This document shows positions 7,788-56,317 of a stretch of 64,000 nucleotides of DNA, one piece after another. Each line of letters opens with the position of its first letter. Position 1 is the first letter of the stretch. The stretch is taken from NCBI GenBank assembly GCA_944362965.1, contig CALVTR010000004.1:43601-107600 (forward strand). Direction: 5' to 3'. This DNA is from an uncultured Clostridia bacterium (GTDB lineage: Bacteria > Bacillota > Clostridia > Christensenellales > UBA1242). The position numbers were made by a program, and so were the translations under genes. The notes below the pieces were generated by a model. The model was given only the letters and a program-made list of their open reading frames with translations, was not told where the DNA came from and made no database searches.

Positions 7788-9065
7788 TTAATTTCTTGTA
7801 AATACATAGTATCCATCAGTAAGTGCACCCTGTGTGAAATTACTTGCAAGATAACTGCCCATTGTGATACTTTCATTCTCCACAATCGCCTGTGGCACAT
7901 AAACTGTATCAGCATAGTAAAGTATATAGCCACAAGAAGTTTGCGAAGTCACACTTGTATAAATATACTCATTTATAGTAACTGTTTCAAGACCATAGCA
8001 ACTTTCAAAAGCACTATCTCCTATACTTGTTACACTTGATGGGATTGCTATACTTGTTAAACTACTACAACCATAGAAAGCATTGTTCCCTATACTTGTC
8101 ACACTATCAGGAATTATTATGCTTGTTAAACTACCACAACCAAAGAAAGCAGAACTACTTATACTTTCCAAACTAAATTCATAAGGAAAAGTATCTGCTA
8201 TATAGATTGCCGATGGGATTACCAAATCTCCTATTACACTTGTATTACAACCCGATACACTTGCTATGCCTGTTGAAACTGTATAACGATATGTCAAATT
8301 ATTATTTGCTGTATCAAATATTGCATAATAGGTTGTTGGTGAATTCTCGGTGAAAGTGAAGGTATAGTCGGCAAGGGTTGATACAAGTTCTCCGTCTACA
8401 TCTAACCAACATAAGAAGACGGCATCCGCATTGCCTGTAAAATCTGCTTGCAAGGTGACTCTGCTCCCAACCATTGCATAGCCTTCGCTTTCAGCTGTGC
8501 CTAGTATTTCTCCAGTATCTGTTTGTCCTAGTGCTATGGTCTCAACCATTTGTGGCACATACTCTTCTATCGTGATTGTAATTCCATCTAAAGAGATATT
8601 GCCTGTTGTTCCGCTTGCTGATTGAATAGTCAGGGTTATTGTGCCTGAGATGTCTGCGGTTGTAACGTTTTCTATCGGAGTTTCAGATGCGGCTGCTATT
8701 GTTCCGCTTGTAGTTAGCGTCACTCCACTACCACCTGTGGCAGTTGCTTGATAGGCTGTCTGTGTGGTATTAACAAAGTCAAAATATACATTGACTGACC
8801 CGCTGCTTGATTGAACTGTGCCTAAGTTAAGGTCTATCGACTGATTTATGTGGCCCGGAATAAAATCGTCTATAGTTGTGGCGGCACCCGTTGGCTCTGT
8901 CTGCACACGTATATCTCTTATATACAAGCTTGTGTCGCCAATGTTAAACTCCACACTTCCCTTAAGATTTATTGTCTGCGTAGCAGCATACACTCCTATG
9001 ATTAGCACTCCTAACATAAGCATAAATAATGAAATACATGAAATTAATTTTATTTTTAATGACAT
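7788..9065 (-). CDS. Secreted/surface leucine-rich-repeat protein (BspA-type LRR), paralog 1
   Basis: 425 aa; TTAAGGAGG RBS; hydrophobic N-terminal signal MSLKIKLISCISLFMLMLGVLIIGVYAATQ; C-terminal 23-aa repeats IPDSVTSIGNNAFYGCSSLTSI. N-terminus and central region are homologous to 53005-54963. Confidence 0.85.
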   Translation of the reverse strand: MSLKIKLISCISLFMLMLGVLIIGVYAATQTINLKGSVEFNIGDTSLYIRDIRVQTEPTGAATTIDDFIPGHINQSIDLNLGTVQSSSGSVNVYFDFVNTTQTAYQATATGGSGVTLTTSGTIAAASETPIENVTTADISGTITLTIQSASGTTGNISLDGITITIEEYVPQMVETIALGQTDTGEILGTAESEGYAMVGSRVTLQADFTGNADAVFLCWLDVDGELVSTLADYTFTFTENSPTTYYAIFDTANNNLTYRYTVSTGIASVSGCNTSVIGDLVIPSAIYIADTFPYEFSLESISSSAFFGCGSLTSIIIPDSVTSIGNNAFYGCSSLTSIAIPSSVTSIGDSAFESCYGLETVTINEYIYTSVTSQTSCGYILYYADTVYVPQAIVENESITMGSYLASNFTQGALTDGYYVFTRN

Positions 9066-9149: not shown

Positions 9150-9178
9150 ACTATAGCATATTTAAAAAAGTCAGTAAC
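9150..9178 (-). promoter_or_regulatory. Proximal extended -10 promoter candidate for LRR gene 1
   Basis: Minus strand reads GTTACT, 17 nt, TGCTATAGT. The same positions are conserved upstream of LRR gene 2 (GTGACA, 17 nt, TGCTATATT). Confidence 0.5.
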
Positions 9179-9488
9179 AGGGGTGACGGCACGATGGCAT
9201 CAAACCACGACCCGAATTTTTCAAGCCTGACGCTTGGCGGTTATCCGGCAGAGTGAGAATAAGAGATAAGCTATATCTCCGCTCTTAAGCCAAATGTTCG
9301 AAGGCTGTCCGATTAAGCGTATTGAAGTTTTAAACTCCATCTCCGCTCTCTAAGCCTAACGCTTGGCGATTGTCCGCGAGCTAGATGCTCGGCGTTTGTC
9401 CGGCAGAGTGACATGAAAGAATAGTCTTTATTCCCGCTCTCTTTAACCATATGTTTGACGGCTGTCTATGTGAGCGAGCTTTGCTGCA

Positions 9489-9581
9489 GGTGTGAGAAGG
9501 CATGTGCATTTTTAAAATGCACATGAAGGCAAAAGTCTTTGCCTTCTAAAAGGCTTGTCAGCCTTTTATGCCTTCTCACAC
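9489..9581. repeat. Three-hairpin unit A (outer 14-bp stem enclosing three hairpins)
   Basis: Outer GTGTGAGAAGGCAT / ATGCCTTCTCACAC. Hairpins: TGTGCATTTT/AAAATGCACA, GAAGGCAAA/TTTGCCTTC, AAAAGGCT/AGCCTTTT. Confidence 0.8.
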
Positions 9582-9631
9582 TCGCGGCGAAGCCGCTCGC
9601 GATGGACATAGTATATCCATCTTTTGCTATT

Positions 9632-9659
9632 AGTATACCCCCCCAGCAACCCTTGTCAA
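9632..9659 (-). promoter_or_regulatory. Promoter-like box with a homopolymer in the spacer (R1)
   Basis: Minus strand reads TTGACA (9654-9659), a 16-nt spacer containing G7 (C7 at 9638-9644 on plus), then TATACT (9632-9637). Confidence 0.45.
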
Positions 9660-9852
9660 CAAATTTTAAGCATTTTTTCAAAATTTTTTAAAAAATTTTA
9701 TTTTTTCGGATTTTTGGTTCAAAAGCGGAAATATAGTTTGTCTCTTATTCTCACCCTGCCGGATAGTCGCCAAGCGTTAGGCTTGCGGACAGTGATGCAA
9801 ACTAAGTTTGCTGTCGAACATTTGGTTCGCTGACAGTCTCCAAGCGTTAGAT

Positions 9853-9945
9853 TGCAAGCGAAAGGGTGATTTTTTGCTTCAGTAAAAAATCACAATAGGC
9901 AAATGCCTATCAAAAAACTCGCAAGAGTTTTTCCATTCGCTTGCA
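9853..9945. repeat. Three-hairpin unit B
   Basis: Outer TGCAAGCGAA / TTCGCTTGCA. Hairpins: GTGATTTTTT/AAAAAATCAC, ATAGGCA/TGCCTAT, AAAAACTC/GAGTTTTT. Confidence 0.8.
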
Positions 9946-10030
9946 TGTGGCAAAGAAACTCAATTTAAATACTTAAATATCTCTATTTATTTTAAGTGAA
10001 TAATAAAACAATAAACACTCAAAATAAAGT

Positions 10031-10405
10031 ATGCTTGACATAAAGTCAAAACTTGTTCTTAAAATATTGATAAAAGAATGTCCTTATGGCTCGTATAATA
10101 TTATAGAATCTAAGGATGTTATTTCTGCACTGCCAAGTAGATACAAAGTTGACATTGAGGGACTTGAAAATATCCTTATTTTTCTTGAACGACAAGAATA
10201 CATTTCAATCAAATACGATGATGATGGAGTGTATTGCCTATGTGTGCTACCTTTTGGATATGAAGTGCTTGAAAATGAGGCAAATAAAAAACGAGAAGAT
10301 AAAAAATCTCCTCGTCTTTGGTTTTATATTGTTTTTAGTCTTCTGGCAAGTTTTCTTGGTAGCTTTCTAGGAACAGTGATTGCACATATTCTAAACCTTC
10401 ACTGA
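10031..10405 (+). CDS. Small protein with a possible winged-helix N-terminal half and a C-terminal TM helix (paralog of 7096-7458)
   Basis: 124 aa; KLVLKILIKEC..IIESKDVISAL; basic linker KKREDKK; then LWFYIVFSLLASFLGSFLGTVIAHIL. No clear SD. The 3' end overlaps the radC 3' end by 71 nt (convergent). Confidence 0.5.
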   Translation: MLDIKSKLVLKILIKECPYGSYNIIESKDVISALPSRYKVDIEGLENILIFLERQEYISIKYDDDGVYCLCVLPFGYEVLENEANKKREDKKSPRLWFYIVFSLLASFLGSFLGTVIAHILNLH

Positions 10406-11099
10406 ATATGCGTTGAATATTTTTCCTTTCCATGCTATAAATTCCATCTTTGCCTACAATAATTGAGTCAATAAGTTTGCAACCAGAGAACTTAAATGTT
10501 CCCTTCATGTTTTCATAAGAAATTTCATCTTGTGCAGAAGCGATACAACTTCCATCTGGATGGTTATGGACTAAAAATGCTGCAGGAACTTTATAAGTTG
10601 AAACAAATAGAGCTATTTCGCGCATATCTATACCAACCATATTGATTGTTCCACTTGCAAACTTTCTACCCCTAATAACTTCGCCAGCAGAGTTGACACC
10701 AAATAGGTGCAACTCTTCTTCTTTTTTATAGCGAAGTAATTGTTCAATATAGTCATAAAAGTCTCCGATAGTTTTCAGTGGCTGAGACTTTAGCTGCTCA
10801 TTTGTATAATAAGAAAAGATTTCAAGTAGTGCATGTAATTTTTGAGCAGCCATTTCGCCTATACCTTTAACTTGTTGCAAATCTTCTACAGATGCTTCGA
10901 GAACAGTTGGAATGTCATTAAAACGATCGAGCAATCTATGAGCAAGTGGATTTACGTCTCCACGCGGGAAGATATAAAAGAGAATATATTCTAAGGCTTG
11001 CACTTTGCTAAGCCCATCAAGACCAACCTTGTTAACAGTTTCAGTCAATCTTTTTCTATGTCCATCATGAATACATTTTTCTTTGGTTGTTTCTGCCAT
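10335..11099 (-). CDS. radC: RadC-like JAB/MPN domain protein
   Basis: JAMM motif HNHPDGSCIASAQD; N-terminal HhH-like part. The ORF track begins at a TTG (11117), but AAAGGAG plus ATG at 11097-11099 (MAETTKEK) is the better start, 14 nt after the giant gene's stop. Confidence 0.85.
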   Translation of the reverse strand: MAETTKEKCIHDGHRKRLTETVNKVGLDGLSKVQALEYILFYIFPRGDVNPLAHRLLDRFNDIPTVLEASVEDLQQVKGIGEMAAQKLHALLEIFSYYTNEQLKSQPLKTIGDFYDYIEQLLRYKKEEELHLFGVNSAGEVIRGRKFASGTINMVGIDMREIALFVSTYKVPAAFLVHNHPDGSCIASAQDEISYENMKGTFKFSGCKLIDSIIVGKDGIYSMERKNIQRIFSEGLEYVQSLFLESYQENLPED

Positions 11100-11113
11100 A
11101 TAAACTCCTTTTA

Positions 11114-14100
11114 TCAATCTGTCGCATTTGCTTCACTAAGAAGCTTTGCGTAATTGGAACCAGTCCAACTCTCACCATCTTCATCCTTAGGGAATTGGGT
11201 TGCATAGTCACCTGTCAATGTATAATAATTTGAAAGAGTGCTATCGTTTTCAAACTGAGTGCTAAAACCAGTATAACTTTTAGATAGACTTTCGTCAGCT
11301 GAGAATAATAATACATTTCCTATGCTTTCATCATCTTCATTTGTTCCAAATGCTCCACCCCATTTCATGCCTGTATCAAATAGAGAAACTCTAGTCATCC
11401 TGTCTCTTCTCTTTGCACCTGAAAGAGCATTAATTCCATTTAGAGATAAATTCGACCCTTCTGCAGAATCATCAGTGCCTAATATAATTTTACCAGCATC
11501 ACCAGATTGTCCTGCAGCACCCGCTTCACCTCTATCAAAATCAACAACAGCATCTGAAATATATGTTATACGCTCACTGTAAGCTGTTCCATAAGAATTG
11601 TATGTAGAACCACCTGCTCCAGCATTTCCGCCATTGCCAGGTTTTAATATAGCACTATCATAAGCAATAACGAGATCGTCATTTCTAGAAATTATAATGT
11701 CTTTTCCGGCACTACCATTTCCGCCTTGACTTCCATCTATATTAATAGAAGAGCCATTAGAACCTTTTCTTCCATCAAGTCCATTGGAAGCTGATACAAA
11801 GCCATAATACGTTACATTTGCATTTATATTATCACCGAATAACGTGATATCACTTATTCCACTAGTATCATTGCCTGCATAATTTAGATATATGTTGTTT
11901 ACATTTATCGTGGATACAACAGACGCATAAATAGTTATATTTGTATCTGAACTTTCATTAGTATTAAAAGCAGAGCCTGTATAGTTGATAATTGCTGCTG
12001 ATGAATCTGTGTAGTTATTAGTGCTTCCATAGATTGCAATATTTGCAAGTTTTGAAAGCGAATCATTGTCTTCTCCTGACAGGAATAATGCATTTCCGTA
12101 TCCATCTGCAAGGAAATTGACATCCTTTATAAATGAGTTTATACCTTCTAAACTTTGGAATATAGGTGAATTATAGTAAGAAATATAGTAACCATTTCCA
12201 ATTATGTTTATAGATGCAGGCTTATTGAACCCACCATCAACTGTTGTAAAGGATATATCATCTTGCAAGATAATTGAGAATGGATCTTTTGTTGTAACGT
12301 CACCATCTATTCTTTCTGTTATAGTAGGACTTGTATCATTGCCAGCACTATTAGTTACAGTTATCGTTGCCAAAGAGATATTCTCGCCAGAAGGATTCAA
12401 ACTATTTAAATAAATTTGATACTCTTCGCCTATAATGATATAATTTTGGTTTTCTACAAAGCTGTCTGGAGCTGTTGTTACTTCAAATTTATCTAGTTCC
12501 ACACCAAAAGAGATCGATTCTATCTGATGGCTTGGTAAGGTTATACCACTCCATGTATAGTTGATTTCATTTATTGTTGATGGACGAGAACTATCAAATG
12601 TATATCCATCTTTTATAAATATATAATCATTATCTATTCCAAGAATATCAAAATCTGAAATGTAAGGCATCCACGAATTATTTAAGAAACTAGAAACAGT
12701 AAAATTACCTATATCACTAGCTGAAGAATAGATACTCGTTCCTAAAGTAATGTTATTAATAACTTCACCTTGAATTCTTATCGTCGTTCCGTCTTCTGTT
12801 TCAGTATTTGTATACACTTGTCTATGACTACTATTATAGTATCTATAATATGTATAATCATCAGATGCGTTTTGTTTTGCCATGCTAAACACAGGATTAT
12901 TATAATTATCATAGAACAACCATTGTTCAGAACCATTGTCACCGGTATTATGCGCTACAGTCACTAAACTTGATTCATCAGAATTTAAATAGTAAGATAT
13001 TGAATCTACTGTGATTGAGTCTCTATCTTCAGAAATTGTAGCATTTACTGTAAAGTCAAAACCAGAAGCATTGGTTAGTGCTATATGCACTGTTGACGAA
13101 TCACGTGCCGCTAATTCATAAACAGGACAAACATTAACTCCGATTGTCACACTGCTTCCACGAATTTCATATCGTGACATAGTATCAAAGGATTGAGTAT
13201 AATTTCCTGTTCCTGTTATTGTCACCGAACTCAAATTTGAATAGTTGCCAGCATCAGAGTCAACATAGAACTCAAGTCCTATTGTTTCATTTTCGTTTAA
13301 ATATCTAGAATAAAGTGTTACATTGATGTCATTTAAGCTTGTGTAACAATCTTCAGTATAAGATATATCATTATAGGTTCCATAATATACTCTTATTCCA
13401 TTTAAATAATATGACTGCAATGATGATGGATTGCTGTTTAAAATATCTGAATTGAATCTAAGTTGATTTCCATCTACTACAAAATATCCACTATCATCAT
13501 TTAAACTATAATTCTTAACAGCCGTCGTGCTTGTTGTAGCAAGTCCCATTATAGCACCTGAGCTATTATATATGTTGAAAGATATGTTGTTGCGATCTAT
13601 AACTGAAGAGAATAGATCAGGTAAATTTGTAACATTATCAAAATCATTAGTAATAGCAGTGTAATTATTTAAAATTGTTTCCAACGAGCTTCTATTTAGA
13701 CTAATACTGCCAGTTCCGTTGTAGGTATATATTAGTTCTCTGCTACTTGAATTTAACTGCACTGTAAATTCATTGCCATTTATGTCTATAGTATTATACG
13801 ATGACGATTTAATCAAACCACGTGATTGTGAGTAGCCTAAAATAGGCGTGTCGTCTTCGTCTAAAATTAGAGTGTTTTCGCTGTATCTATTAAGGTTTAC
13901 TATGAACTGTGCATCTACTTGTTCAGTAGTATACGAACTTGAAAGACTAGCATAATCAGTAATGTCGCCATTTGTTATAGTTGGTGAGCCAGATGCTGAA
14001 ACCAACAGATTGTTAGTTAGGTAGTTTCTTAGAGTTGTAGCCAGAGAGCTAGCTGAAGAACTGCTGAGATCTAAATTGCTAAATCTGAATGTTAGAACGT

Positions 14101-17100
14101 CACCTGTTGCACTTAAAGTATAGCTATATGCCGATCCACTGACTGTTATTGTGCCGCTTCTAAGAGGTGACCAACCACTAGAAGAATAAGTTGCAAGGAT
14201 ATCTCCTGACCCTGACAGTGTCACATTATAAGAACTATATCCTTCCCCAGTTAAGTCAAATTCATTGGTTATATCTACTTCAATATCACTTGAATAAGTT
14301 AAGTTGGATTCAATACTACTATACCAAGAACTTAGCTCATCACCATAAGATATTGATGCATTACCATCGGCAGTGCCGCCACCTATATTACTTAAGGTTG
14401 TCTCTCCATTTCCAGATATAGAACCAAAAGAAATATCTTTTGCTGTTTCTTCTCCTTCTATCGACAGAGAATAGGTTTGATTATTAAACATGTCTATAAT
14501 TTTTGACACATTTTCTTGATAATCTTCTGCGCTTCTTCCAACTATTGAATTATTAACTAGATCTAAGTTGTTTACAGAATATCTTTCAGTTTCATCAACT
14601 ACAAGTGTTGCATTTGGAATATAAACCAACATTCCATTCTCTTCATCAACGCCGAAGAACACGAAATTTTCATTTTCTTCATCGCCGAGAACTGCTGGAG
14701 CCCCAGTAAATGCACCTTGTTTATATCCTTTTATAACTAAGTCGTAATCATTCCCAAAACCATCAAATAGACGATATCCACGAACTTCTTGATAATTGTC
14801 TAAAACATCAATCTGTATTCCAATAGCATTGTCATTTATGTAGTAGTATTTAGTATTTGACATATTGAATGTGACAGTTTGATTGTAATTAAAGTGGATA
14901 GTATAACTTATATTGCCACTAAAAGGTGTGAAGCTATAGCAAGTAAAGTTCAAACCGTCTTCAGTTACAGAGTTTACATATGTTATCAAACTATTTCCGT
15001 TACTTGTAGCAGAAACAGAGTAGTTGCTTGTATCATTTGTGTAAGGAATATTGCCTAGCGACGCTCCTTCTACTCTATAGACATACACTCCCGCATTGAA
15101 AATGGTATTTGCGTTGTTTGTGCTTACAAGATAATATTCTTGTCCATCTATTGTTGTAATTTGATCTTCACCTTCTGTTTGTTGACTGCGAGTGCTATTT
15201 TTTATTGTAGTCCCATCATAAGGGTTGCTTACTGAATTTGAAACATTGCTAATAAAGGAATAAGAATCACTATAACTATTTACATAATCCATGTAGATAG
15301 TCGTAGCATCTACAGAAACAAATTCAGAATTTGTGGCTCTATAATTATTTACAGGTCTGAAATTATCATCATTTCGCCAATTTTCATCATCATAGCCAAA
15401 CGGAGTAAAGTTACCCCACCAGCCATTATTAGCATAATCTATGTCAACAACATAATCTACCCTTACAGTAAAGCTATTTGGCAAACCAAAACTATTATAT
15501 GACTGAACATAAACTTCTGCTGAGCTGCTAGGAGCTTGAATACTGCTTGTAAAGCTTATTCTTGTTAAGAAATGACGGCTAAAAACTAAATGAAATAACC
15601 AAACACGACCATAAGTAGTATAAGTTCTTTCTCTTAAATAAGTTCCGCTTATCATATCTGACAATTCCCAACTTGCGATAGGGTCTTCAAAATCTAGCAT
15701 TGAGCCATTCATGTAGATGGATGATTCCGTTGCGTCGCGAGCTACACAATCCTTTATAGAGCCACTATTAAGATAACCTATTGCATATGCCCAAACATTA
15801 CGGTTGCTTGTTTGTTTAAGCTCAAGAGTATCTTCATTCCATCTATATTCAGTTGTTGGACTTGTGCCTAGAGCTTCGATAGAGCCTTCATTATAACATG
15901 CTGTAATCTCCGCCGTTTCTGCCATAGCAATTATACCTGCGGCATAAGAACGTCCCCTTACAACCCCACGACCATAGGTCTCGCCATTCTCTTTATTGCC
16001 TGATTTGATTGGTCCGGCATTGTATGAACCTGTTATTGAAAGGCTAGTTGCATCGCTATAACCTGCAACACCACCAACATAATAGTCACCTAAAGTTGTT
16101 GAAAGTGCTGAAGCTGATGCATAGTTTGCCATAACTGAAGTTGCGTTATAACTATAGTTGATTGCGTTATTATCGCCTACTATATGACCTACAATACCAC
16201 CGACATAATAGTTGCCTGTTGAACTTGTGCTACTAATATCATAATATACATTGATTGTGCCATAATTTGAGCTGTAGTTTATGGTTGTGTTTTCCATGCG
16301 TCCAACTAAACCACCAACTTCAATATTATCCGTATCTTTTTCTGTTTCATTGATTGTGACTGTGACAAGATTTGTTACAGTTGAGATAGTAGAATTATAT
16401 ACTTCATTGGCAAGTCCGCCAAGAACGGTATAATCTGCGTCAGTTGGATCGTCACCTTCATTGAGACCTAACACACCAAGTGCTGCAGTATTTGTTGAAC
16501 CTGAGATTGTCATATTTGAAATCTCAGCATTATAGATTGTTGTTGCAAGAACGCCTTTTTGTGAAACTGCGACATCTGTAAGTCTAAGATTTCTAACTTG
16601 AACTGTCTCGCCATCTTTTGTTCCTAAATCTTTGAAGAATGAGTTGTTGAGATTTGATAATGTGTTTTCATTGCCATCAAAATCGACAAATGCTTCGTTC
16701 ATCACTAAGCTTTCCCATTCTGCCCAATCTGTGAGTGAGATATCAATGCTATACCAGAGAACGAAATGTCCAACATTTACTTCTTCTGCTTCAGCTGTGC
16801 CATCTCCGGTTTCTCCATCTGGATTATCTGTTACAGGAGAAAGAACAGTTGTTATGCTTGACATCTTTGTAAGGATGCCTGCATGTGGAACAATATAGTA
16901 GAAGGTCTCTTCTGTTGAGCCATCAGTTCCTGCATCAGTTGAAGTGTATGTGCTTGGTCTTGTGTTATTTGGAAGTCTTGTGTAGTCATTTGATGTTACA
17001 TAATAATCATAAGTGCCTTCTTCGCCTTCACGTTGAAGCTCGCCTGCTGTTGCAAAGGATGATACTTTGGTAAATCCATATTTCAATGTTGGATAACCAT

Positions 17101-20100
17101 AGTTGAAATCATATTCGCCTTTATCAAAGAAGATTGTTGAAAGTAGTGAGCTTTCGTCAAGGACAGCATTTGAAAGCGTTGATGTGTCTTTGCGTATTAC
17201 ACTATCCGTTGCCGATTCACTTTCTATAATCAAGTCAGTTTCTAGTGCGTTATAGTCGTAATAAGAGTTTGTAAGTAAGTAGGTATCACTATCACTTCCA
17301 TCACTAAACACGCCAACTGTGCCACTTGCCGCACTTGTTCTTGTATAGTCGTCAAGCGTCATTTTAACGATAGAATATGTGTTATCTACCATTGTGTGAG
17401 AAGCACCTGAGGTCACTGCATATAGATTAGCACTGATATATGATGAAATGCTTCCTGTAGAGTAAGAATATAGAAGGAATTTTGTTGTCACGTCTGATGA
17501 GGCATTATCAAAGCCTGCAAGTCCATATACACTTCCATTTGCACCTGCTCTATAGATAATATCAAGTGACGTTGTGGCATATACAATCTTTCCTGATTGA
17601 ACATTGCCAACAAGTCCGGCAACAGTCATTGCATCAGTTCCACCTACGCTCAACTCACCTTTGACTTGAACTGCGTATACTGTTGCGTTGTCTGTCATTG
17701 TGTTTGCAAGACCTGCAAATGTTCTTTCTCCATCGTCGTTATTTGCATTGACGTCAACATTTACAACAAGACCAGAGACATAAGAGAAGCCACTTAATGT
17801 ATCTATAAGAGACTTTTGATCTGTGCTGCTATTGCTGTCAAGTGAATAATCGATTTCATAGCCATCGCCTATTATAGCCACATTCTTAAGGTTATTTCTT
17901 TGATATGTTGTTGTGCCAATGTTTGTGTTATGACCAATATTTAACTGGCTTGTAAACGCCGAGCTGTTTGTGTCAATCACATAGTATGCCATACCATTTG
18001 TTAGAGTTGGAGTTTGAGCCTCTCCTGTTGTGGTTGCACTCAAAACAATAGGGCTAAGTTTTTGACCTGCAACATGACCTGTTTCGCTTCCACTTCGCTC
18101 GTAGAGATTATAACTATTAAATAGACTTACAAGGTTTGTGTTTCCATCTGCGAATGTATTTAAACTTGTCTTTTCGCCATTATAGCCATATCCATCAGCA
18201 AGATATGGTAAATAATATCCAACGTCTGTGCCTAAGTCATCGATAGTAAGAGTGACGAGTGAACTATAATAGTTGTCTTGAATAGTTGAATCTTCAGACG
18301 GCAATGTTCCAAATAGTGCATTATTTGTGCTGTCATCTACTTCAACATACCTTACATTATGGCTTGTTACCAATGAATAGTTAAGTGTGGCTTGAATTTT
18401 ATATGGGTTTTGTCCTTCAGTGCCTGAAGAAATTTCGCCAAGAACCCCACCAAATATATAACTTCCAAGTTCACTTAGAGTATTTCTACCTGCAACATAT
18501 TCATCGTATTCAACAAATACGTCGCCATAGTTATAGTTGTTAGTTATAGTTACGTTGACTTGTTCTGCATTGTAACTGCTTGTGCTTGAGAGTAATGCAC
18601 CAACAGTTCCGCCTGCAACAACTTCTTCTGAAGTTGAACCAAATACTTTTAGTGCGCCGCCAAATACACCATTTTGAATAGTTAAACTATCGTTAACGTT
18701 AGAGAAGTATACCCCGCCGACTATTCCACCAAAGTTGATAGAATGGGCGTTAGAGAACACGGCTCCGATATAATTTATAGTATTTTGAGAAGTGTTGCCA
18801 ATTTGCGATTTAGATGCAAGTGCTGGAGAATCTGGGGCTGTTACATCTTGAGAAGATACTATGCTTCCTATCATTCCACCAACATTTGCTTCGGTGTAGT
18901 CTGTGCTGCTTCCTGTTTGAGAAACAACAATGTTTGCTTTTGAAACAATATTATTTGTGACTACTAGCGTGTCTGTTGCATTGGCATCTGTTGCACTGAC
19001 TGCCGAGAACTTACCTATCAATGAGCCAACATTGAGCTCTTTGTTTTGCGGCGTGCTTATTCTGATAAATTCGCCATTATCATTGAGTTTTGTAAATACT
19101 GATGCACTGCCGCTGAATGTAAATCTAGCATCTGTATGTCCAACAAGAACGCCGACATTAGCATTGCCATTTATTGCAACCATACGCTTTGCATATTGAG
19201 CGGTGTCATCTGAATAAGAAATAAAGCTATCTTTTGTAAATTCGTCTGAAGTAGAGCTTCCCCTTACATAAGCTTCAACTGCAAAGTTTATTGTGTCTAT
19301 ATTTCTTATATTTGTTGCATTTTGACTTAACTCACCCGCAAAGCCACCTGCATATAAGTTGTTTATAGATGCACCAGACTGAACATAAAGTCCACCATCA
19401 AGGACAGAGTTATTTAGGTTGACACTATCTATTGTCGTTGAGTTTTGACCGAATACAAGACCTGCATAGACATTTTCAGTTACTCTTACGCCCGATAAAA
19501 TTCTTAAGTCAAGTTCAAGAGAAATTGAAGCACCGCCATAGTTGCTGATATTATTTACACCTTGATTATTGCCAATTACGCCACCCATATGGAGATTGCT
19601 TATCTCAAGATTTGAAGTTACAATTATACCTTGATTTGTGTCATTTACTGATGATGATGTTCCTGATTTAGTTATATTGTTTATAGTAACTCTTGCACTC
19701 AAGGCAATATCATCTCTTGTTGTTAAACCAAAGTATCCACCTATATTAACTTCGCCTAAACTGCGTCTACTAGAAGAGCCGCCACTTAGCGTTATTAAAT
19801 CGCCATTGAACTCATATTCTATTCCTTCAATTCTTAGGATTGATATTGAGCTACGTTGATAAAGCGTTCCGGCTAAGAAGCCTATATTTACGTTAGGCAT
19901 ATTGCTGTTTGTTGCAGGAGCAGTGATATTTACAATCGAGCTTCCGCTGCCTATTCGACTTGAAGTGATTGTTATATTTGATAGGGTTGAACTTGTGATT
20001 ACTGGAGCAATAATACCAAAATTATAATCACTTGAGCTATCTAAAATTGTAGATGTTACACGAGAATTTATTTCAATTCTTAGGTTTGAAAGTGTTGCTT

Positions 20101-23100
20101 CTGAAAGTCCACCAACAGAGAATAAGCCTGCATTGTTATTGCCGTTGGCATTTATCGTTATATTAGAGCTATTGCCTGTGTAATATTCAATTTCTACATT
20201 ATTCATATAGAAACCAGCACCTGTTGAATCTATAAAACTCTCTGAAGATATAATTCTTACTCTTTCGCCTTGCCTATCGCCACTTGTTACAATATATTCT
20301 TCACTACCTATAATCGAACCTGAGAAACCAGAGATAGGCTGAATCAAACCGCTGCTAAGATAAGGTCTAAGGTCAATATCTTCATAACTATCATCACTAT
20401 CAGGAGATGTTCTTCCTCTGACAACTACGGTCAAATCATTATTTGAAGTCTGCAATCTTTCAAATACAGAGACAATACTTTCTTCATAAGCATCAAGGTA
20501 GATATAATTTGAAGAGCGTTGATATCTTATTGATGGGAAAAGTTCGTCAGTGTCATGAACCCAGTGAACAGCTTCCCATGCACCAGAACTTAAGAATGCC
20601 TGTTGAGTATATGTATGCCCAACGGTTGAATTTGTAAAGTTTGTTGGAGAGGCTATAGCATAGACAAGGGAATCTTCTTCTGTGCTGATTGAGCCATTTA
20701 CGTCACCAAACAAATTCATTGTTATTCTGAAACTATTGAATGAATAGCTGTCATAGAAGGCAACTGTTGGAATTAAACCAAGTGCTGTGCCTGTGCTATT
20801 GGTTGAAGTAAGTTGAATAATTTCAATATATGATGAGTAGTTATCTATAGTTAAATCTATATCATTATTGTTTGCAATATCACTAGCTTCGTTGAAGGCA
20901 GAGCCTAAAATAAGGTTTGTCTTGTATGTATATGAGATATTCATTGCTTGAGTTACAGGCAAATACTCTTCTGTTTGGTAATCATAGTTAGCAATCTCGT
21001 TGACAGAGTTTACAGCAAGGAGTGCAATTCTGTTGCCAGAGCCTATTGATACACCAATTATACCGCCTGCAGTCATGATACTGCTATTGCCATCTTGTCT
21101 TGCACGGACATCACCTGACGCATATACTTCATTTATAAAGTATTTTGTGTATGTGCCGTCTGTAAGTAATTCCGTTGAAACTTGATATGTAGATGTGCCA
21201 GATAAATCAATGCCACCAATCACACCACCTGCAAAGTCTGCCGATGGGCTTGTTACATTCAATTTCGAATAAGATATTTCAAGTTTGCCAGAGCCAACAT
21301 AGCCCGCAATTCCACCAATATATAACTGAGAATAGCTGCTATTTGCAAGATAGAAGATATCAAGGGCTCCCCTTTCTGCTGTGGTGTCTCCGTTATAGAA
21401 GGATTGAATACTATTTTCAATATTAGACTGGGTTGAATCATCATAAGCTGAATAAATTCTGCTTAAAGCACCAAATGATTGTCCAACAACGCCACCTGCA
21501 AAATACTTAGTTGCTATGATATGTGACTGGTTCTCAGCTGTCGTGCCTGTGATATTTATTCCTGCATCACGAACGTTTGTCTGGAAGCCTGTGAGACCAA
21601 AGATACCGCCGGCTACCTGCCCTTGAACGTATACAGTTCCGCTTACTCTGATATTATTTATTGAATAATCTTCTGCTTGATTGATATTGAAGTTTCTTGA
21701 AGTTGTTGAGAAGTTATCTGCAAAGCCAAGGACAGAACCCGCATAAGAATAATTGCTTAGTTGTGTTATAACTGAAGATGAGATTGTTGTGTTATAGTTT
21801 AAGCTGTTTCTGATATCATTGCGTATTCCATTTAATTTTTCAATGTCAAAGTATGCATTTTGAGCTGATTGAGAATATCTATCAGCAACAACATAAGGGT
21901 CAGTTACAACAATATTTTTAATAACACTATTGCCAAATGAGAAGCCTACAAGTCCACCTACAAAGTTTAGACCTGTGACTTGAGAGTTTTCGTTGAATGT
22001 TATTTCAATATTTACAATAATAGAGTCCTTAATGTATCCAGCAAGACCGCCCACCATAACAGCGTCACCAGCTACAACTTGATTTATTTCAAGATTTAAG
22101 TTGCTTATAAGTGGAACAGAGCCGTTTCTGCTCTCAACAGAAGCAAATAATCCATAAGCCACATCGCTTTCTTCTGAGGCTATTGATATATTTGAAATTG
22201 TAAATCCATTGCCGTATAGTCTTCCTGCAAAAGCTTTTGTTGTTGATGGAAGAATTATAGATTCACTTACAGTTGAAAGGTCAATATCAGCAACCATTCT
22301 ATAGCTGCCCCATACAACACTGCTATTATAGTTTTGAGATATAGGAGTTGATGACGAATTGCCCATAACTTCTACAAAATCTTGAGCACTTGTTATTAAT
22401 ATTGGGTTGTTGCTTGAGCCAAGAGCCGTGTCTATTTCACGAGAAGAATCTGTGAACTGCAAGATTGCATATCTAAAGATATATTCACCCTGCTCATTTT
22501 CTGCTGTCACTCCTTCATAGCCTGAATTTTCATCAAGATAGTAGGCATATCTATGTGAATATGACTGTAGGTTTGGCTCTATAAGAGTTACACCTTCTTC
22601 TGTTATTTGCCATACGCCATCACTTTCGCCATCTGCAACTGCAAAGCCGTAGAAGTATGAAGATACAGCTGGGTTTGGTATTAGAATTGCACCTGTGCCA
22701 TATTGTGACTCTACTGTGCCATCGTCTGACATTTCACCACTATAACGTTTATTAAAGAAGTAGCAATTTGTATATGTTCCATTAGCAAGCAAGTCACCAT
22801 TTTCGTCAACACCTGAGAAGTTCATTTGCGTTGCTCTTGAGTTTGCAATTTGTGATGCTGAATAGCATGCCTCTATCGTGCCTGTGTTTTCGTATACAAA
22901 ACCTGATGCAAAGTATACACGCACTGTATCAGTTGAGTTTGCAATTAAAATATTTGAATAGCTGTTTTGAATTGTGCCTAAGTTGTTGTTTACAAAGCCA
23001 GCAATTACGCCAAGTCTTGATTTTAGTGAAGAGCCTTCAAATGCATAGATTGAATAACTGCTATCATCTGCGAGACTGTCATCGTTTGGCACACCTTCAA

Positions 23101-43210: not shown

Positions 43211-43295
43211 TCTTCTCCCCTTTTTATCTGTTGTTTTTATTTTTAATAAATTTAAATAAAAATATATTTTTTAATTATTTTTATTTATTTTTTTT

Positions 43296-43378
43296 AATTT
43301 TTCAATGATTTTTAATGGTTTTTATTGATTTTTTATAATTTTTCAATGATTTTTAATAGTTTTTATTGATTTTTTATA
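43296..43378. repeat. Two tandem 41-bp units made of helically phased T-tracts
   Basis: TAATTTTTCAATGATTTTTAATGGTTTTTATTGATTTTTTA is repeated with 1 mismatch. T5-6 runs recur about every 10-11 bp, between whiA and dnaE. Confidence 0.8.
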
Positions 43379-43425
43379 ATTTTTTATTAAATTATTTAAT
43401 TTTTAATTTATTTTTTCTGTATTTT

Positions 43426-45380: not shown

Positions 45381-45821
45381 CTACTCATCTATTCCACCAC
45401 CAGTATTTCCTCCTGCTCCATTCTCATTATATATGATATCTATGCTTATAGCAACATCGCTATCTATGTTGTATACGCTACTTGTCATTGAAAGGGTATG
45501 AGGAAGAATACCCCCATCTTCAGTAATACCACCTCCTGAACTCTCAAATTCATATTGAGTCTCTTGGTATATTGCAGGCTCAAATGTTATGACAACATAT
45601 TCTGCATATGGATGACCATGTGGACCTCCTTCGCCTTCTACAAAAAATTGAATATTTGTGACACCATTCAATATAATATGTGAAGAAGTTACTTCTATTC
45701 TTTCTCCGCTATTTATACTATAAAATATTTTTGCTTTATATCGCTTAATATCGTCTATTGCGTCAATAACGTCTATTTTGTCAGTTCCACTTTTATTTTT
45801 CCATCCACACGCTCTCTTCAC
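45381..45821 (-). CDS. Hypothetical protein (146 aa, GTG start)
   Basis: ORF with AAAGGTGA just upstream of a GTG start. Gly-rich C-terminus. Its first roughly 25 codons are nucleotide-homologous to the non-coding W modules in R2/R3, so the true start and coding status are uncertain. Confidence 0.45.
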   Translation of the reverse strand: MKRACGWKNKSGTDKIDVIDAIDDIKRYKAKIFYSINSGERIEVTSSHIILNGVTNIQFFVEGEGGPHGHPYAEYVVITFEPAIYQETQYEFESSGGGITEDGGILPHTLSMTSSVYNIDSDVAISIDIIYNENGAGGNTGGGIDE

Positions 45822-46005
45822 TTTTCACCTTTCACTCTTCACTCCCGCTTAGCGGTTTGATTATCTGTTTTTTATCGACAAATATATCTATAACGTCGAA
45901 TTTATCAGTTCCTTGAGAGCGGAGATAAAATTTATTTTTTAAAAACACTCAATCGGACAATCGTCAAACATTTGGTTTGAAGAGCGGAGATGTAGGTTGG
46001 AGAAT
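45822..46005. repeat. Partial modular repeat block R3
   Basis: Palindrome CCGCTTAGCGG (45845-45855), a W module (45870-45912), and two inverse M units with AGAGCGG at 45916 and 45981 (65-bp spacing). Strong similarity to 55851-55960. Confidence 0.8.
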
Positions 46006-48874: not shown

Positions 48875-48975
48875 AAAATACCTAATTTTTTCTCTTTTTT
48901 TAGTTTTTTATTGAATTTTTGTTATTTTTCCTATTTTTTTATTAAATATTAAATTGAATTTTTATTATTTTGTCT

Positions 48976-49887: not shown

Positions 49888-49995
49888 TTAATTCTCGCTT
49901 TTTATTTATTTTTTAATAATTTAATTATTTTTTATGATTTTTTGTTATATTTTCAATAATTTTTATTATTTTATATTTTATTTATTATTTTTTAT

Positions 49996-54963: not shown

Positions 54964-55061
54964 ATTACCATATTCTCCTTTTAATTTTGAGTTTTTTCTT
55001 TAGTTTGTTAAAATACAATGTTTTTATGTAAATTTTGTCAATTTTTGTATTTTACAGCCTT

Positions 55062-55090
55062 AATATAGCACTTTTTAAAAGTCTTGTCAC
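55062..55090 (-). promoter_or_regulatory. Proximal extended -10 promoter candidate for LRR gene 2
   Basis: Minus strand reads GTGACA, 17 nt, TGCTATATT. Positionally homologous to 9150-9178. Confidence 0.5.
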
Positions 55091-55533
55091 AGGGGTGACG
55101 GCACGATGCCGTCAAATCACGACCCGAATTTTTCAAGCCTGCTGTTCGACGATTGTCCGATTAAGAGTGTCTAAGTTTTAAACTACATCTCCGCTCTCTA
55201 AGCCTAACGCTTGGCGGTTATACGGCAGAGTGAGAATAAGAGATAAGCTATGTCTCCGCTCTTAAGCCAAATGTTTGACGGCTGTCCGGCAAACTTAGTT
55301 TGCATCACTGTCCGATAAAGTGAATATAAGAAACAAACTTTATCTCCGCTCTCTAAGCCTAACGCTTGGCGACTATCCGGCAGAGTAAGTTGAAAAAATA
55401 AACTTTGTCGCCGCTCTCAAACCTTACGTTTGGCGATTGTCCGCGAGCCAGATGCTCGGCGACTGTCCCTGAGCTAATTGAAAGCACAAACCTTATCTAC
55501 CATGTCTTTGCTTGCGGAGCGAGCGTTGCCGCA

Positions 55534-55628
55534 GGTGCGAGAAGGCATAAAGGCTGACAAGCCTTTTGGAAGGCAAAAAGTTTTTGCCTTCTTGTGCATT
55601 TTGAAAAAATGCACATGCCTTCTCACAC
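55534..55628. repeat. Three-hairpin unit E (interior inverted relative to unit A)
   Basis: Outer GGTGCGAGAAGGCAT / ATGCCTTCTCACAC. The interior (55549-55614) matches the reverse complement of 9504-9567 with only a few substitutions and indels. Confidence 0.85.
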
Positions 55629-55678
55629 TCGCGGCGAAGCCGCTCGCGATGGACATAGTATGTCCATCTTTTGCTATT

Positions 55679-55708
55679 AGTATACTCCCCCCCCGCAACC
55701 CTTGTCAA
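55679..55708 (-). promoter_or_regulatory. Promoter-like box with a homopolymer in the spacer (R2)
   Basis: Minus strand reads TTGACA (55703-55708), an 18-nt spacer containing G8 (C8 at 55687-55694 on plus), then TATACT (55679-55684). Confidence 0.45.
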
Positions 55709-56142
55709 CAAATTTTAAGCATTTTTTAAAAAAATTTTTATTTTTTTTGAATTTTTGCGGATTTTTGGTTTGAGAGCGGAAATATAGTTTATGTTTTAGG
55801 GTTGCTCTATCGGATAGTCGTCGAACATTTGGTTCGGTGCCTTAGGCACTTTTTATCGACAAGTGTATCTTTAACGCTGAGTTTATCAGTTCCATGAGAG
55901 CGGGGATAAAGTTTATACTCGTAACTCATCCTGCCGGACAATCGCCAAGCGTTAGGCTTGGTGGCTTAGCCACATTTTGTCGTCTAGTGCGTCCATAACG
56001 TCGAGTTTTTCAGTTCCAGCTTAGCCACTTCCTTTTGATAATTTTTCCTATCTCCACTTTATATGAATAACTTTTCATAGCTATAATTTCCTTGTATAAC
56101 CCCTTTCTTTTTCACTTCAGCTTATAATTTGTTTTTCCGCCG

Positions 56143-56242
56143 CAGGCAAGCGAATGGGTGATTTTTTAACAAAAAATCACAATAGGCAAAACTAGTTTTG
56201 CCTATCAAAAAACTCTTACGAGTTTTTTCATTCGCTTGCCTG
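56143..56242. repeat. Three-hairpin unit F
   Basis: Outer CAGGCAAGCGAATG / CATTCGCTTGCCTG (extendable to about 23 bp). Hairpins: GTGATTTTTT/AAAAAATCAC, ATAGGCAAAAC/GTTTTGCCTAT, AAAAAACTC/GAGTTTTTT. Confidence 0.8.
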
Positions 56243-56317
56243 TGGCGAAGAAAATTTACATTATGTTACTCGAGCAATCTAAAATAAAACCCTAAAAATA
56301 TCCGCATATTGATATAC

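What the first reader, a model, noticed from the sequence alone, without database searches (positions are those of the whole stretch)
9176..9957. R1: a 0.8-kb G+C-enriched, ORF-free, module-built structured block upstream of an LRR surface-protein gene
Almost all other intergenic DNA in this window is pure A/T-tract sequence. This block is visibly G+C-richer and consists almost entirely of stems and repeated modules. From low to high coordinates it contains six parts. (1) A GGGGTGA..TCACGACCC stem region. (2) Three to four direct copies of a roughly 36-nt M unit (CCGCTCT[C]TAAGCC.A...TTG.CG..TGTCCG), joined by two alternating linkers. (3) A three-hairpin core. (4) A TTGACA/TATACT promoter-like box facing the LRR gene. 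(5) M units in the opposite orientation. (6) A second three-hairpin unit. The only ORFs here overlap on both strands and lie inside palindromes. High local G+C plus dense pairing in an AT-rich genome is a classic signature of structured RNA, but the same layout would also fit a protein-binding array or a BOX/BIME-type mosaic element. I cannot match it to any element class I know.
Basis: partly seen in the sequence, partly recalled or inferred. Interest (0 to 1): 0.8.

Follow-up and report, generated by a model that had tools for sequence, protein, structure and literature searches.

The report
Surface-protein promoter region invaded by hairpin repeats
The block is not one structured RNA gene; it is the promoter and leader of a surface-protein gene, flanked and split by arrays of a previously undescribed 64-base hairpin repeat that is scattered through the genomes of this group of uncultured gut Clostridia.

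Summary

It is a composite of two things.

(1) An ancestral 5' region shared by a paralogous family of secreted BspA-LRR/DUF6273 proteins. There are three or more copies per genome; R2 lies at 55088-56253. This region holds:
- a strong sigma-70-type promoter with a G5-G9 run in its spacer;
- phased A/T tracts upstream of the promoter;
- a large palindrome just downstream, here a "cloverleaf" of three hairpins closed by a ~30-bp stem;
- a proximal conserved S/extended -10 region.

(2) Arrays of a lineage-specific 64-nt repeat, the M unit. Each unit has a 5-bp hairpin with compensatory changes, GCGATTGTCCG, an A/T-rich spacer hairpin, and TCCGCTCT. In related MAGs, M arrays usually start 0-22 nt (often 0-2) after stop codons, or right after a tRNA CCA end, co-oriented with the upstream gene.

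One strain lacks the leader M array entirely, and R3 lacks the outer inverted arm. Rfam, phage and plasmid searches found nothing.

The closest analogues are REP/BIME, BOX and NIME mosaics, plus homopolymer-tract promoters. Phase variation and the way M units spread are inferred, not shown.

The parts
9150..9158 (-). Proximal extended -10-like box (TGcTATAGT), about 85 nt upstream of the LRR1 start codon (ATG 9065-9063; RBS AAGGAGG 9080-9074)
   Evidence: Aligned with TGCTAAAAT/TGCTATATT in R2, R3 and in L026, L027 and L029 of other species (alignment A3). Coordinates. Promoter activity is inferred.
9180..9213 (.). S module: GGGGTGACGGCACGATGGCATCAAACCACGACCC, with the inner hairpin GACGGCA/TGCCGTC. 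It marks the gene-proximal end of the left M array.
   Evidence: Conserved in R2 (55091-55124) and R3. Its TGACGGC core is conserved in the leaders of distant homologs. The fold alone is not significant.
9222..9466 (+). Left M array: head-to-tail units 9222-9285 and 9286-9349, a compound unit 9350-9440 (two hairpin+TGTCCG sub-blocks plus one spacer), and a partial unit 9441-9466. The forward strand of the units is the + strand, which is antisense to the LRR mRNA.
   Evidence: nhmmer hits, repeat families D1-D3, natural-frame alignment A2. The corresponding array is absent from R2 of strain L035.
9470..9600 (.). Core cloverleaf palindrome: a ~30-bp outer stem (perfect inner arms 9478-9503 / 9568-9593) closing three hairpins (9504-9567).
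   Evidence: MFE -78 to -87 kcal/mol, z = -13 on either strand. The interior is inverted in R2 and R3 relative to R1, while the arms keep their orientation.
9601..9621 (-). Leader hairpin 1 (GATGGATATACTATGTCCATC), just downstream of the predicted transcription start.
   Evidence: Lies in a stretch of 77 nt that is 97% identical between R1 and R2. Fold z = -2.7.
9632..9659 (-). Promoter P: TTGACA (9659-9654), a 16-nt spacer ending in G7 (9644-9638), TATACT (9637-9632). It faces the LRR gene.
   Evidence: Promoter scan gives 11 of 12. The same design occurs at 14 places in at least 5 loci or species, with spacers of 15-18 nt and G5-G9.
9660..9722 (.). Phased A/T tracts upstream of the -35 box (UP-element-like, probably curved DNA).
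   Evidence: Direct repeats D5 at 11- and 17-nt spacing. Conserved in R2 and R3. Function is inferred.
9705..9851 (-). Right M array. Its forward strand is the minus strand, the same direction as the upstream radC operon and the LRR gene. It contains one full unit and three short hairpin+TGTC(C/A)G sub-blocks. Positions 9705-9785 form an 81-nt, 84% inverted repeat with 9222-9302.
   Evidence: The inverted right arm is absent in R3.
9853..9945 (.). K2, the second cloverleaf palindrome: a 10-bp outer stem plus 2 further pairs across a bulge, closing three A/T-flanked hairpins that look like terminators in both directions.
   Evidence: z = -7.2 and -8.5; one hairpin is flagged as terminator-like. 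Conserved in R2 and R3. The same shape, with unrelated sequence and a U6 tail, follows rpe in L026.
55088..56253 (.). R2, the paralogous block upstream of the second BspA-LRR gene (53005-54963, minus strand). Parts: S 55091-55124; left M array 55133-55491; core 55517-55655 (interior inverted relative to R1); promoter P 55708-55679 (spacer 18, G8+AG); right array plus N modules 55764-56030; K2 56136-56253.
45869..45998 (-). Third, partial occurrence: one full M unit (45928-45990) plus an N-type module, about 108 nt downstream of rpe (46099-46761, minus strand). In a related species this site holds a full surface-protein gene with a 1-kb upstream block.
   Evidence: synteny with L026.

Best explanation
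R1 is a composite intergenic mosaic, not a single functional unit.

Layer 1 is the ancestral 5' control region of a family of secreted surface proteins that share an N-terminal domain fused to BspA-LRR or DUF6273 domains. In gene sense it runs as follows:
- a cloverleaf or bidirectional terminator-like palindrome (K2) that closes off the upstream gene;
- phased A/T tracts;
- a near-consensus sigma-70-type promoter (P) whose 15-18-nt spacer ends in a run of 5-9 G;
- a large palindrome starting at or just after the promoter (here hairpin 1 plus the core cloverleaf);
- a conserved proximal S/extended -10 segment, then the RBS and start codon.

I infer that the G-run makes promoter spacing, and so expression of each paralog, mutable by slippage or indels (phase or rheostat variation). 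I also infer that the palindromes act as insulators or 5' stabilisers.

Layer 2 is arrays of a lineage-specific 64-nt repeat, the M unit: CAAGC-loop5-GCTTG, GCGATTGTCCG, an A/T-rich spacer hairpin, then TCCGCTCT.
- M units behave like REP/BIME/BOX-type interspersed elements. They are dispersed and variable in copy number.
- They sit head-to-tail and grow by duplication of two-unit blocks.
- They normally lie in the 3' untranslated region of the preceding gene, in sense orientation.
- Only their small hairpin is maintained by compensatory substitutions.

In the window's species one array lies between K2 and P, as the 3'-end array of the upstream operon. An inverted copy has been inserted into the leader between the core and S. 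Together these create the 81-nt inverted repeat and most of the G+C excess.

Shown: the composite nature, the dispersal, the hairpin covariation, the promoter conservation and the indel polymorphism.
Inferred: transcription, phase variation, and how M units spread. My best guess for the last is a hairpin-recognising enzyme acting in trans, plus local unequal recombination.
For: Paralogy and constant order of parts:
- R1, R2 and R3 all sit upstream of BspA-LRR paralogs that are 46% identical.

Promoter:
- 11 of 12 consensus positions in R1 and R2.
- 97% identity over 77 nt between R1 and R2, against about 73% for the whole block.
- The TTGACA-spacer with G-run-TAnAnT design occurs at 14 places, with spacers of 15, 16 and 18 nt and G5-G9. 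R2 shows 18 nt in the window and in L035, but 16 nt in L024.
- In L032 this promoter is 75 nt from the ATG.

Ancestral proximal leader: alignment A3.

Cloverleaves: z = -7 to -14 in R1, R2 and R3, and in L026 with unrelated sequence.

Dispersal of M units:
- 11 loci in 4 MAGs and 56 nhmmer hits.
- They lie next to housekeeping genes.
- Arrays start 0-2 nt after stop codons in L001, L002, L003, L004 and L008, and at the base after the CCA of tRNA-Leu in L006.
- Contigs often end inside arrays.

Structure of the M unit:
- Helix 1 is 99% paired, and 2 of its 5 pairs show compensatory changes (15 cells).
- Helix 2 is 71% paired, against 29-41% when the partners are slid.
- G.U pairs occur only on the forward strand.

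Optional parts:
- R3 has no right arm.
- Strain L035 (98.3% identical flanks) goes straight from the core to the RBS and ATG, with no M array, S or proximal box.
- uvrA and rpoZ 3' regions differ between species in whether and how many M units they carry.

Searches that found nothing: Rfam, phage, plasmid and viral collections.
Against: - There is no transcript data, so promoter use, leader length and the role of the palindromes are inferred.
- G-run length differences between strains at one locus are few. R1 shows TG7 against G8, which is a substitution. R2 shows a 2-nt AG indel, not a G slip. True slipped-strand switching is therefore unproven.
- The recurrent T/G difference at the head of the run could be a homopolymer sequencing error.
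- No transposase or recombinase was found next to any array, but only 2-10 kb around each was available.
- The leader arrays of R1-R3 are antisense to the mRNA. This does not fit a simple 3'-UTR RNA role.
- The T(G/C)TCCG motif about every 32 nt, and TATCCA-like motifs in the leader palindromes, could instead point to a DNA-binding protein.
Confidence: 0.72

Rival explanations
1. An invertible-DNA phase switch (inverton). A site-specific or homologous recombination event between the 81-nt outer inverted repeats would flip promoter P. Alternatively, an event between the 26-nt inner repeats would flip the 64-bp core interior. Either would turn the LRR gene on or off, as in the C. difficile cwpV switch or the Bacteroides promoter invertons.
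For: - Promoter P lies between inverted M arrays in R1 (9222-9302 / 9705-9785, 84%) and in R2.
- The core interior is inverted in R2 and R3 relative to R1, while the arms keep their orientation.
- The loop of K2 hairpin c is also flipped between R1 and R2.
- The genes are surface proteins, a class that is often phase-variable.
Against: - P faces its gene in all 15 available assemblies or loci.
- The orientation of the core interior is fixed per locus across strains: R1 in the window and L023; R2 in the window, L024, L035 and L036.
- R3 has no outer right arm.
- No recombinase gene lies in the 64-kb window or beside related loci.
- 64 bp is very short for enzymatic inversion.
- The three interior hairpins are palindromes, so flipping changes little.
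- Small inversions inside hairpins are a common neutral mutation.
Confidence: 0.08
2. One large structured non-coding RNA or a riboswitch-like leader. The whole 0.8-kb block would fold into a functional RNA that regulates the LRR gene in cis or acts in trans.
For: - Very stable folds for the core and K2 (z down to -13).
- Compensatory changes in the M hairpin, with G.U pairs limited to one strand.
- High local G+C in an AT-rich genome.
- C-to-U changes in the 3' arm of the core give G.U pairs in the mRNA sense in L024 and L025.
Against: - Modules differ in number, order, orientation and presence between paralogs and strains.
- M units occur at many unrelated loci.
- The leader M units are antisense to the mRNA, whereas their G.U pairs favour the other strand.
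- The core and K2 are near-perfect palindromes that fold equally well on both strands, as DNA-level palindromes do.
- There is no Rfam match even at E up to 10.
- Whole M units are not more stable than shuffled sequence.
Confidence: 0.07
3. A protein-binding array. The T(G/C)TCCG boxes, spaced about 32 nt apart (two per 64-nt unit), would be bound cooperatively on double-stranded DNA by a nucleoid-associated protein or a regulator. The TATCCA/TGTCCA half-sites in the leader palindromes would be bound by the same or a related protein. This would organise or silence the surface-protein promoters.
For: - The TGTCCG and TCCGCTCT boxes are the most invariant columns of the unit.
- The spacing is regular.
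- Palindromes overlapping the -10 box in L029 and L032 keep their symmetry through a compensatory change (TAGAAT...ATTCTA against TAAAAT...ATTTTA). This cannot be an RNA feature, because part of the left arm lies upstream of the likely start site.
- A TTATCCACA motif is conserved in three leaders.
Against: - Covariation in the hairpin stem argues for a folded single strand rather than duplex recognition.
- Most arrays lie at the 3' ends of housekeeping genes, not at promoters.
- No candidate binding protein has been identified. The neighbouring 124-aa ORF has no family match.
Confidence: 0.1
4. A decayed gene or a degenerate CRISPR-like array. A 37-nt repeat plus a 27-nt spacer gives a CRISPR-like period of 64 nt.
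For: - The period and repeat length resemble CRISPR.
- Some modules in R2 and near 45.8 kb read like short coding fragments (GTDK.DV.D).
Against: - The repeats are only 62-88% alike.
- The spacers are homologous to each other across units and genomes.
- Arrays occur in both orientations back to back.
- There are no cas genes.
- No intact ORF was found in any copy.
- The 146-aa ORF is unrelated to the full gene at the syntenic site.
Confidence: 0.02

Closest known systems
REP/BIME elements of Enterobacteria and Pseudomonas (REPINs, mobilised by RAYT Y1 transposases)
   Same: - Short extragenic hairpin repeats with a conserved single-stranded motif beside the stem.
- Many copies per genome.
- Mostly just downstream of stop codons, inside 3' untranslated regions.
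- Clustered into mosaics with a few linker types.
- The stem is maintained by compensatory changes.
- The repeats break short-read assemblies.
   Different: - No sequence similarity.
- The conserved motif is T(G/C)TCCG, not GTAG.
- The stem is only 5 bp (up to 9 with a bulge).
- Units are 64 nt and arranged head-to-tail, whereas BIMEs alternate in orientation.
- No RAYT gene was seen in the DNA available.
- The host is a low-G+C member of the Clostridia.
BOX elements of Streptococcus pneumoniae (boxA-boxB(n)-boxC) and Neisseria intergenic mosaic elements (dRS3/RS arrays)
   Same: - Modular mosaics in which a middle module is repeated a variable number of times.
- Located in intergenic DNA, often near surface-protein or virulence genes.
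- Predicted stable RNA folds.
- Able to alter expression of neighbouring genes.
   Different: - Unrelated sequence.
- No defined terminal A/C-type modules common to all arrays. Only some arrays end in a GGCGGATAATCCGCC module.
- M arrays start at a fixed unit position directly after the stop codon or the tRNA end.
Homopolymer-tract phase-variable promoters (Neisseria porA/opc poly-G/C, Mycoplasma hyorhinis vlp poly-A, Bordetella fim poly-C). BspA-like proteins are also known to be phase-variable through simple repeats in Ca. Mycoplasma girerdii (PMC5476646).
   Same: - A run of 7-9 identical bases inside the -35/-10 spacer of promoters.
- The promoters serve a multigene surface-protein family.
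- Spacer length differs between paralogs, orthologs and strains (15, 16 or 18 nt).
   Different: - Within-population length variation has not been shown.
- The observed strain differences are a substitution and a 2-nt indel, not a clean G slip.
- In Ca. M. girerdii the repeats lie inside the ORFs and are dinucleotides.
C. difficile cwpV switch and gut-bacterial invertons
   Same: Inverted repeats lie between the promoter and a surface-protein gene. A hairpin-rich leader segment has an orientation that differs between copies.
   Different: - No recombinase is present.
- No orientation polymorphism is seen within a locus.
- The flipped segment is 64 bp of palindromes.
- The outer repeats are copies of a dispersed repeat and are missing in one paralog.

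Membership tests
REP/BIME (RAYT-associated) | Imperfect palindrome preceded by a conserved GTAG tetranucleotide | tested here: not met
   A hairpin is present and covaries. The conserved flanks are GCGATTGTCCG and TCCGCTCT, with no GTAG.
REP/BIME (RAYT-associated) | A Y1 (HUH) RAYT gene flanked by the repeats in the same genome | tested here: inconclusive
   No Y1_Tnp or other transposase was found among the window ORFs or the ORFs beside arrays. Only 2-10 kb around each array was available, and whole MAGs could not be scanned.
REP/BIME (RAYT-associated) | Extragenic, multi-copy, enriched just 3' of genes | tested here: met
   11 loci in 4 MAGs. Arrays start 0-22 nt after stop codons, or right after a tRNA, and are co-oriented with the upstream gene.
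REP/BIME (RAYT-associated) | Clusters made of repeats in alternating orientation | tested here: not met
   Units are head-to-tail. Orientation flips only once, at the centre of convergent double arrays.
BOX / NIME-type mosaic | Fixed terminal modules flanking a variably repeated middle module, with sequence similarity to boxA/B/C or dRS3 | tested here: not met
   No terminal module is shared by all arrays, and no boxA/B/C or dRS3 sequence was recognised. That comparison relies on my own knowledge of those sequences; no library of them was searched.
Inverton / invertible promoter | Inverted repeats flanking a promoter or terminator | tested here: met
   R1 has 81-nt arms, 84% complementary, around P. 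26-nt arms surround the core interior. R3 lacks the outer arm.
Inverton / invertible promoter | Both orientations present within a population or between strains at one locus | tested here: not met
   All assemblies of each locus share one orientation. Read-level data were not available.
Inverton / invertible promoter | A dedicated tyrosine or serine recombinase | tested here: not met
   None in the 64-kb window or beside related loci. One encoded elsewhere in the genome cannot be excluded.
Slipped-strand phase-variable promoter | A homopolymer tract of at least 7 bases within the -35/-10 spacer | tested here: met
   G7-G9 in 13 of 14 promoters and G5 in R3. The position is conserved although the flanking spacer sequence differs.
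Slipped-strand phase-variable promoter | Tract or spacer length varies within populations and changes expression | not testable with these tools
   Only consensus assemblies were available. Spacers of 15, 16 and 18 nt occur among paralogs and strains.
Known RNA families (Rfam 15) | A covariance-model match at or above the gathering score | tested here: not met
   Only tRNAs matched in the window and in five related loci. The best hits in the block had E = 0.3-7 and scored far below the cut-offs.
CRISPR array | Near-identical repeats, unrelated spacers and cas genes nearby | tested here: not met
   Repeats are 62-88% alike. The spacers are homologous to each other. No cas domains were found.

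The most novel reading that the evidence does not exclude
The M unit could be a new kind of strand-specific, hairpin-guided element that integrates exactly at the 3' end of a transcription unit and then polymerises head-to-tail. It starts at base +1 after a stop codon or after a tRNA CCA end. An as-yet-unidentified enzyme would mobilise it, either an HUH/Y1-type enzyme or an RNA-templated one. Its arrays would be co-opted, together with a G-run promoter and self-symmetrising palindromes, into a multi-layer variation system for a BspA-type surface-protein family.
Probability: 0.15. Interest if true: 0.75.

Novelty: new variant of a known kind. Interest (0 to 1): 0.42.

Why it matters
Interspersed hairpin repeats are well studied in Proteobacteria and pneumococci but hardly at all in uncultured gut Clostridia. 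In those organisms they evidently fragment metagenome assemblies exactly at surface-protein loci.

This family has a clean unit, a fixed start point at stop codons and tRNA ends, and natural presence/absence alleles. That makes it a tractable case for asking how such repeats spread and what they do to neighbouring genes.

Separately, a conserved G-run in the promoters of a multigene BspA-LRR/DUF6273 family suggests that these commensals vary their surface proteins by promoter-spacing changes. This can be tested directly on existing metagenome reads.

Tried and rejected
- Rfam at gathering score and at E up to 10 on the block, the window and five related loci: only tRNAs.
- blastn of the block against phage and plasmid collections: no match.
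- Viral-contig scans with the M and leader patterns: none.
- A search for a recombinase or transposase in the window and beside arrays with Pfam and NCBIfam: none.
- CRISPR reading: rejected, because the spacers are homologous to each other and there are no cas genes.
- Decayed-gene reading: rejected. No copy carries an ORF, and the 146-aa ORF at the partial third copy is unrelated to the full gene at the syntenic site in L026.
- A whole M unit as a stable fold: single units are no more stable than shuffled sequence. Only the 5-bp hairpin, and more weakly the spacer hairpin, are supported.
- A search for orientation variants across samples: contigs of other samples mostly end inside the block. 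Those that cross it keep the same orientation.
- Look-ups that returned nothing: the LRR1 protein, P0001, P0013 and the 74-aa RpoZ ORF.
- One locus from the genome scan (L012, Chloroflexota) is a chance match.
Full report
**Setting.** The window is an AT-rich bacterial chromosome: 35.7% G+C overall, and 6-35% in intergenic DNA. It carries uvrA, uvrB, radC, a 6551-aa ORF, a tRNA cluster, dnaE, whiA and priA. The block at 9176-9957 lies between a BspA-type LRR gene (7788-9065, minus strand; it has a signal peptide) and a 124-aa ORF.

**Checking the observation.**
- G+C is 43.7%.
- No ORF exceeds 71 aa.
- The 25-nt M core occurs 7 times in the window, against 0 in shuffles.
- The two three-hairpin units fold as four-way "cloverleaves", with z = -13 and z = -7 to -8.5 on either strand. 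The S stem alone is not significant.
- Rfam gives nothing. Phage and plasmid collections give nothing.

**The block is one of several paralogs.**
- A second copy, R2 (about 54995-56253), precedes a second BspA-LRR gene (53005-54963). The two proteins are 46% identical.
- A fragment sits at 45869-45998.
- A metagenome scan with the most conserved 24-mer returned R1 and R2 from another sample. It also returned a third block, R3 (L025), upstream of a third LRR paralog next to an ftsW/rodA-like gene.
- In gene sense the order of parts is constant: K2 cloverleaf, A/T tracts, promoter P, hairpin 1, core cloverleaf, M array, S, about 110 nt, RBS, ATG.
- R3 has no inverted M units between K2 and P, so the 81-nt outer inverted repeat of R1 is not a constant feature.
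- The interior of the core is inverted in R2 and R3 relative to R1, while the arms keep their orientation. Within each locus the orientation is the same in every strain available.

**The promoter.**
- TTGACA-16-TATACT (9659-9632, minus strand) scores 11 of 12. It lies in the best-conserved stretch of the block: 97% over 77 nt, against about 73% overall.
- Its spacer ends in G7.
- I searched with the shared N-terminal domain of the LRR proteins and fetched the encoding contigs. The same design, TTGACA then a spacer ending in a G-run then TAnAnT, appears at 14 places in at least five loci or species. Spacers are 15, 16 or 18 nt and runs are G5-G9.
- In L032 this promoter is only 75 nt from the start codon, so it is the promoter of this gene family.
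- R2 has an 18-nt spacer in the window and in L035, but 16 nt in L024.
- A G-run held at this position in a 36% G+C genome, with spacer length differing between copies, fits the classical homopolymer-promoter type of phase or rheostat variation. The strain differences seen here are a T/G substitution and an AG indel, so slippage itself is not shown.
- BspA-like proteins are known to be phase-variable through simple repeats in Ca. Mycoplasma girerdii (PMC5476646).

**Palindromes next to the promoter.**
- In other species the promoter is followed by, or overlaps, a long palindrome. L029 and L032 have 20-bp perfect arms that include the -10 box, with a compensatory change (TAGAAT...ATTCTA against TAAAAT...ATTTTA). 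L026 and L027 have 22-bp arms around a conserved TTATCCACA.
- In the window's species this place is taken by hairpin 1 and the core cloverleaf.
- K2 has the same shape. In L026 a cloverleaf of unrelated sequence, followed by U6, terminates rpe.
- I read these palindromes as insulators, terminators or 5' stabilisers. Where the -10 box is part of the palindrome, they must be DNA-level elements. This remains unexplained.

**The proximal leader.** The S core (TGACGGC) and an extended -10-like box (TGcTAAAAT) align across R1-R3 and three distant loci (A3). They are therefore ancestral parts of the leader, not parts of the repeat arrays.

**The M units.** A scan of one genome per species found the M core in four MAGs of uncultured Clostridia/Firmicutes, at many contigs. 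A profile search found 56 units.
- The natural unit is 64 nt: CAAGC-N5-GCTTG, GCGATTGTCCG, an A/T-rich spacer of about 27 nt, then TCCGCTCT.
- Units abut head-to-tail. Arrays show A-B-A-B spacer patterns, that is, duplication of two-unit blocks.
- Arrays start 0-2 nt after the stop codon in L001, L002, L003, L004 and L008. In L006 the array starts at the base after the CCA of tRNA-Leu.
- Arrays are co-oriented with the upstream gene in nearly all cases, including both halves of the convergent array in L003.
- The flanking genes are ordinary housekeeping genes.
- Contigs often end inside arrays.
- The 5-bp stem is 99% paired, with compensatory changes at two positions: CAAGC/GCTTG, CAAAC/GTTTG, CGAAC/GTTCG and CGAGC/GCTCG.
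- The spacer helix is 71% paired, against 29-41% for slid controls. Its G.U pairs exist only on the forward strand.
- Whole units are not more stable than shuffled sequence.

**M arrays are optional.** In strain L035 (98.3% identical flanks) R2 runs from the core straight into the RBS and ATG. There is no left array, no S and no proximal box. Species also differ in whether uvrA and rpoZ are followed by units. The leader arrays of R1-R3 are antisense to the mRNA and 82-86% complementary to the arrays on the other side of P. They look like an inverted duplication inserted into the leader.

**Conclusion.** R1 is a mosaic of two layers. The first is an ancestral, probably variable, promoter and leader of a surface-protein family. 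The second is arrays of a new interspersed hairpin repeat that works like REP/BIME, BOX or NIME elements but fails the membership tests for those families. Its motif, arrangement and sequence are all different, and no RAYT gene was seen. How the units spread, and whether they act as RNA, single-stranded DNA or protein-binding sites, remains open.

Noticed in passing
window 9638-9644 and 55685-55694; L005, L023-L033: A G5-G9 run sits in the -35/-10 spacer of every promoter of this surface-protein family. Spacer length is 15, 16 or 18 nt. R2 differs between strains (18 against 16 nt).
   Followed up: yes
L035:4220-4440 (strain variant of R2): A natural allele in which the core cloverleaf is followed directly by the RBS and ATG. 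The roughly 525 nt holding the M array, S and the proximal box are absent. The LRR 5' end is only 79% identical, which suggests recombination between paralogs.
   Followed up: partly
L029:2205-2247, L032:2369-2411, L026:2573-2650, L027:2694-2773: Long perfect palindromes include the -10 hexamer itself and keep their symmetry by compensatory change. The centre of the L026 and L027 palindromes, and the L005 leader, carry TTATCCACA, which is the DnaA-box consensus.
   Followed up: partly
L006:394-760 and L011:1440-1760: An M unit starts exactly after tRNA-Leu(CAA). About 110 nt further on, the last 18 nt of the tRNA are duplicated and followed by a second unit. This looks like the footprint of an integration or duplication at the tRNA end.
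   Followed up: partly
window 55840-56030 and 45740-45912: N modules of about 40-60 nt replace the M hairpin in some units. They contain small terminator-like hairpins (GGTGCCTTAGGCACC, GTGGCTTAGCCAC). On the other strand they read like repeated peptide fragments (GTDK.DV.D). One such fragment is the N-terminus of the 146-aa ORF 45381-45821, which has no family match.
   Followed up: partly
L013:940-990: In one sample a diverged LRR1 body (84.5% identical) is joined at window position 8770 directly to 9945, across a TGTGG microhomology. This removes the gene's 5' end and all of R1. It is either a real deletion or a scaffold chimera.
   Followed up: no
window 11114-30769 (minus strand): A single 6551-aa ORF lies downstream of radC. 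It was not examined.
   Followed up: no
window 10031-10405 (+) and 10335-11117 (-): The 124-aa ORF beside R1 has a C-terminal hydrophobic helix and no family match. It overlaps the 3' end of radC by 71 nt in convergent orientation. Its protein sequence is identical in 22 contigs from other samples.
   Followed up: partly
window 43267-43424: The 9% G+C spacer upstream of whiA is built of phased T-tract repeats with a period of about 20-21 nt. Similar tracts lie at 48874-48972 and 49879-49994.
   Followed up: no
L005:250-330, L008:6700-6800: Another small repeated module (CCCTTGAAATTnTCAAATTTCAAGGG hairpin) follows M units in the CALVOK01 MAG. This lineage carries several distinct intergenic repeat families.
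   Followed up: no
window 53092-54112 and 7998-8220: 69-nt tandem repeats inside the LRR genes. They encode the 23-residue LRR units and are shared between the paralogs.
   Followed up: no
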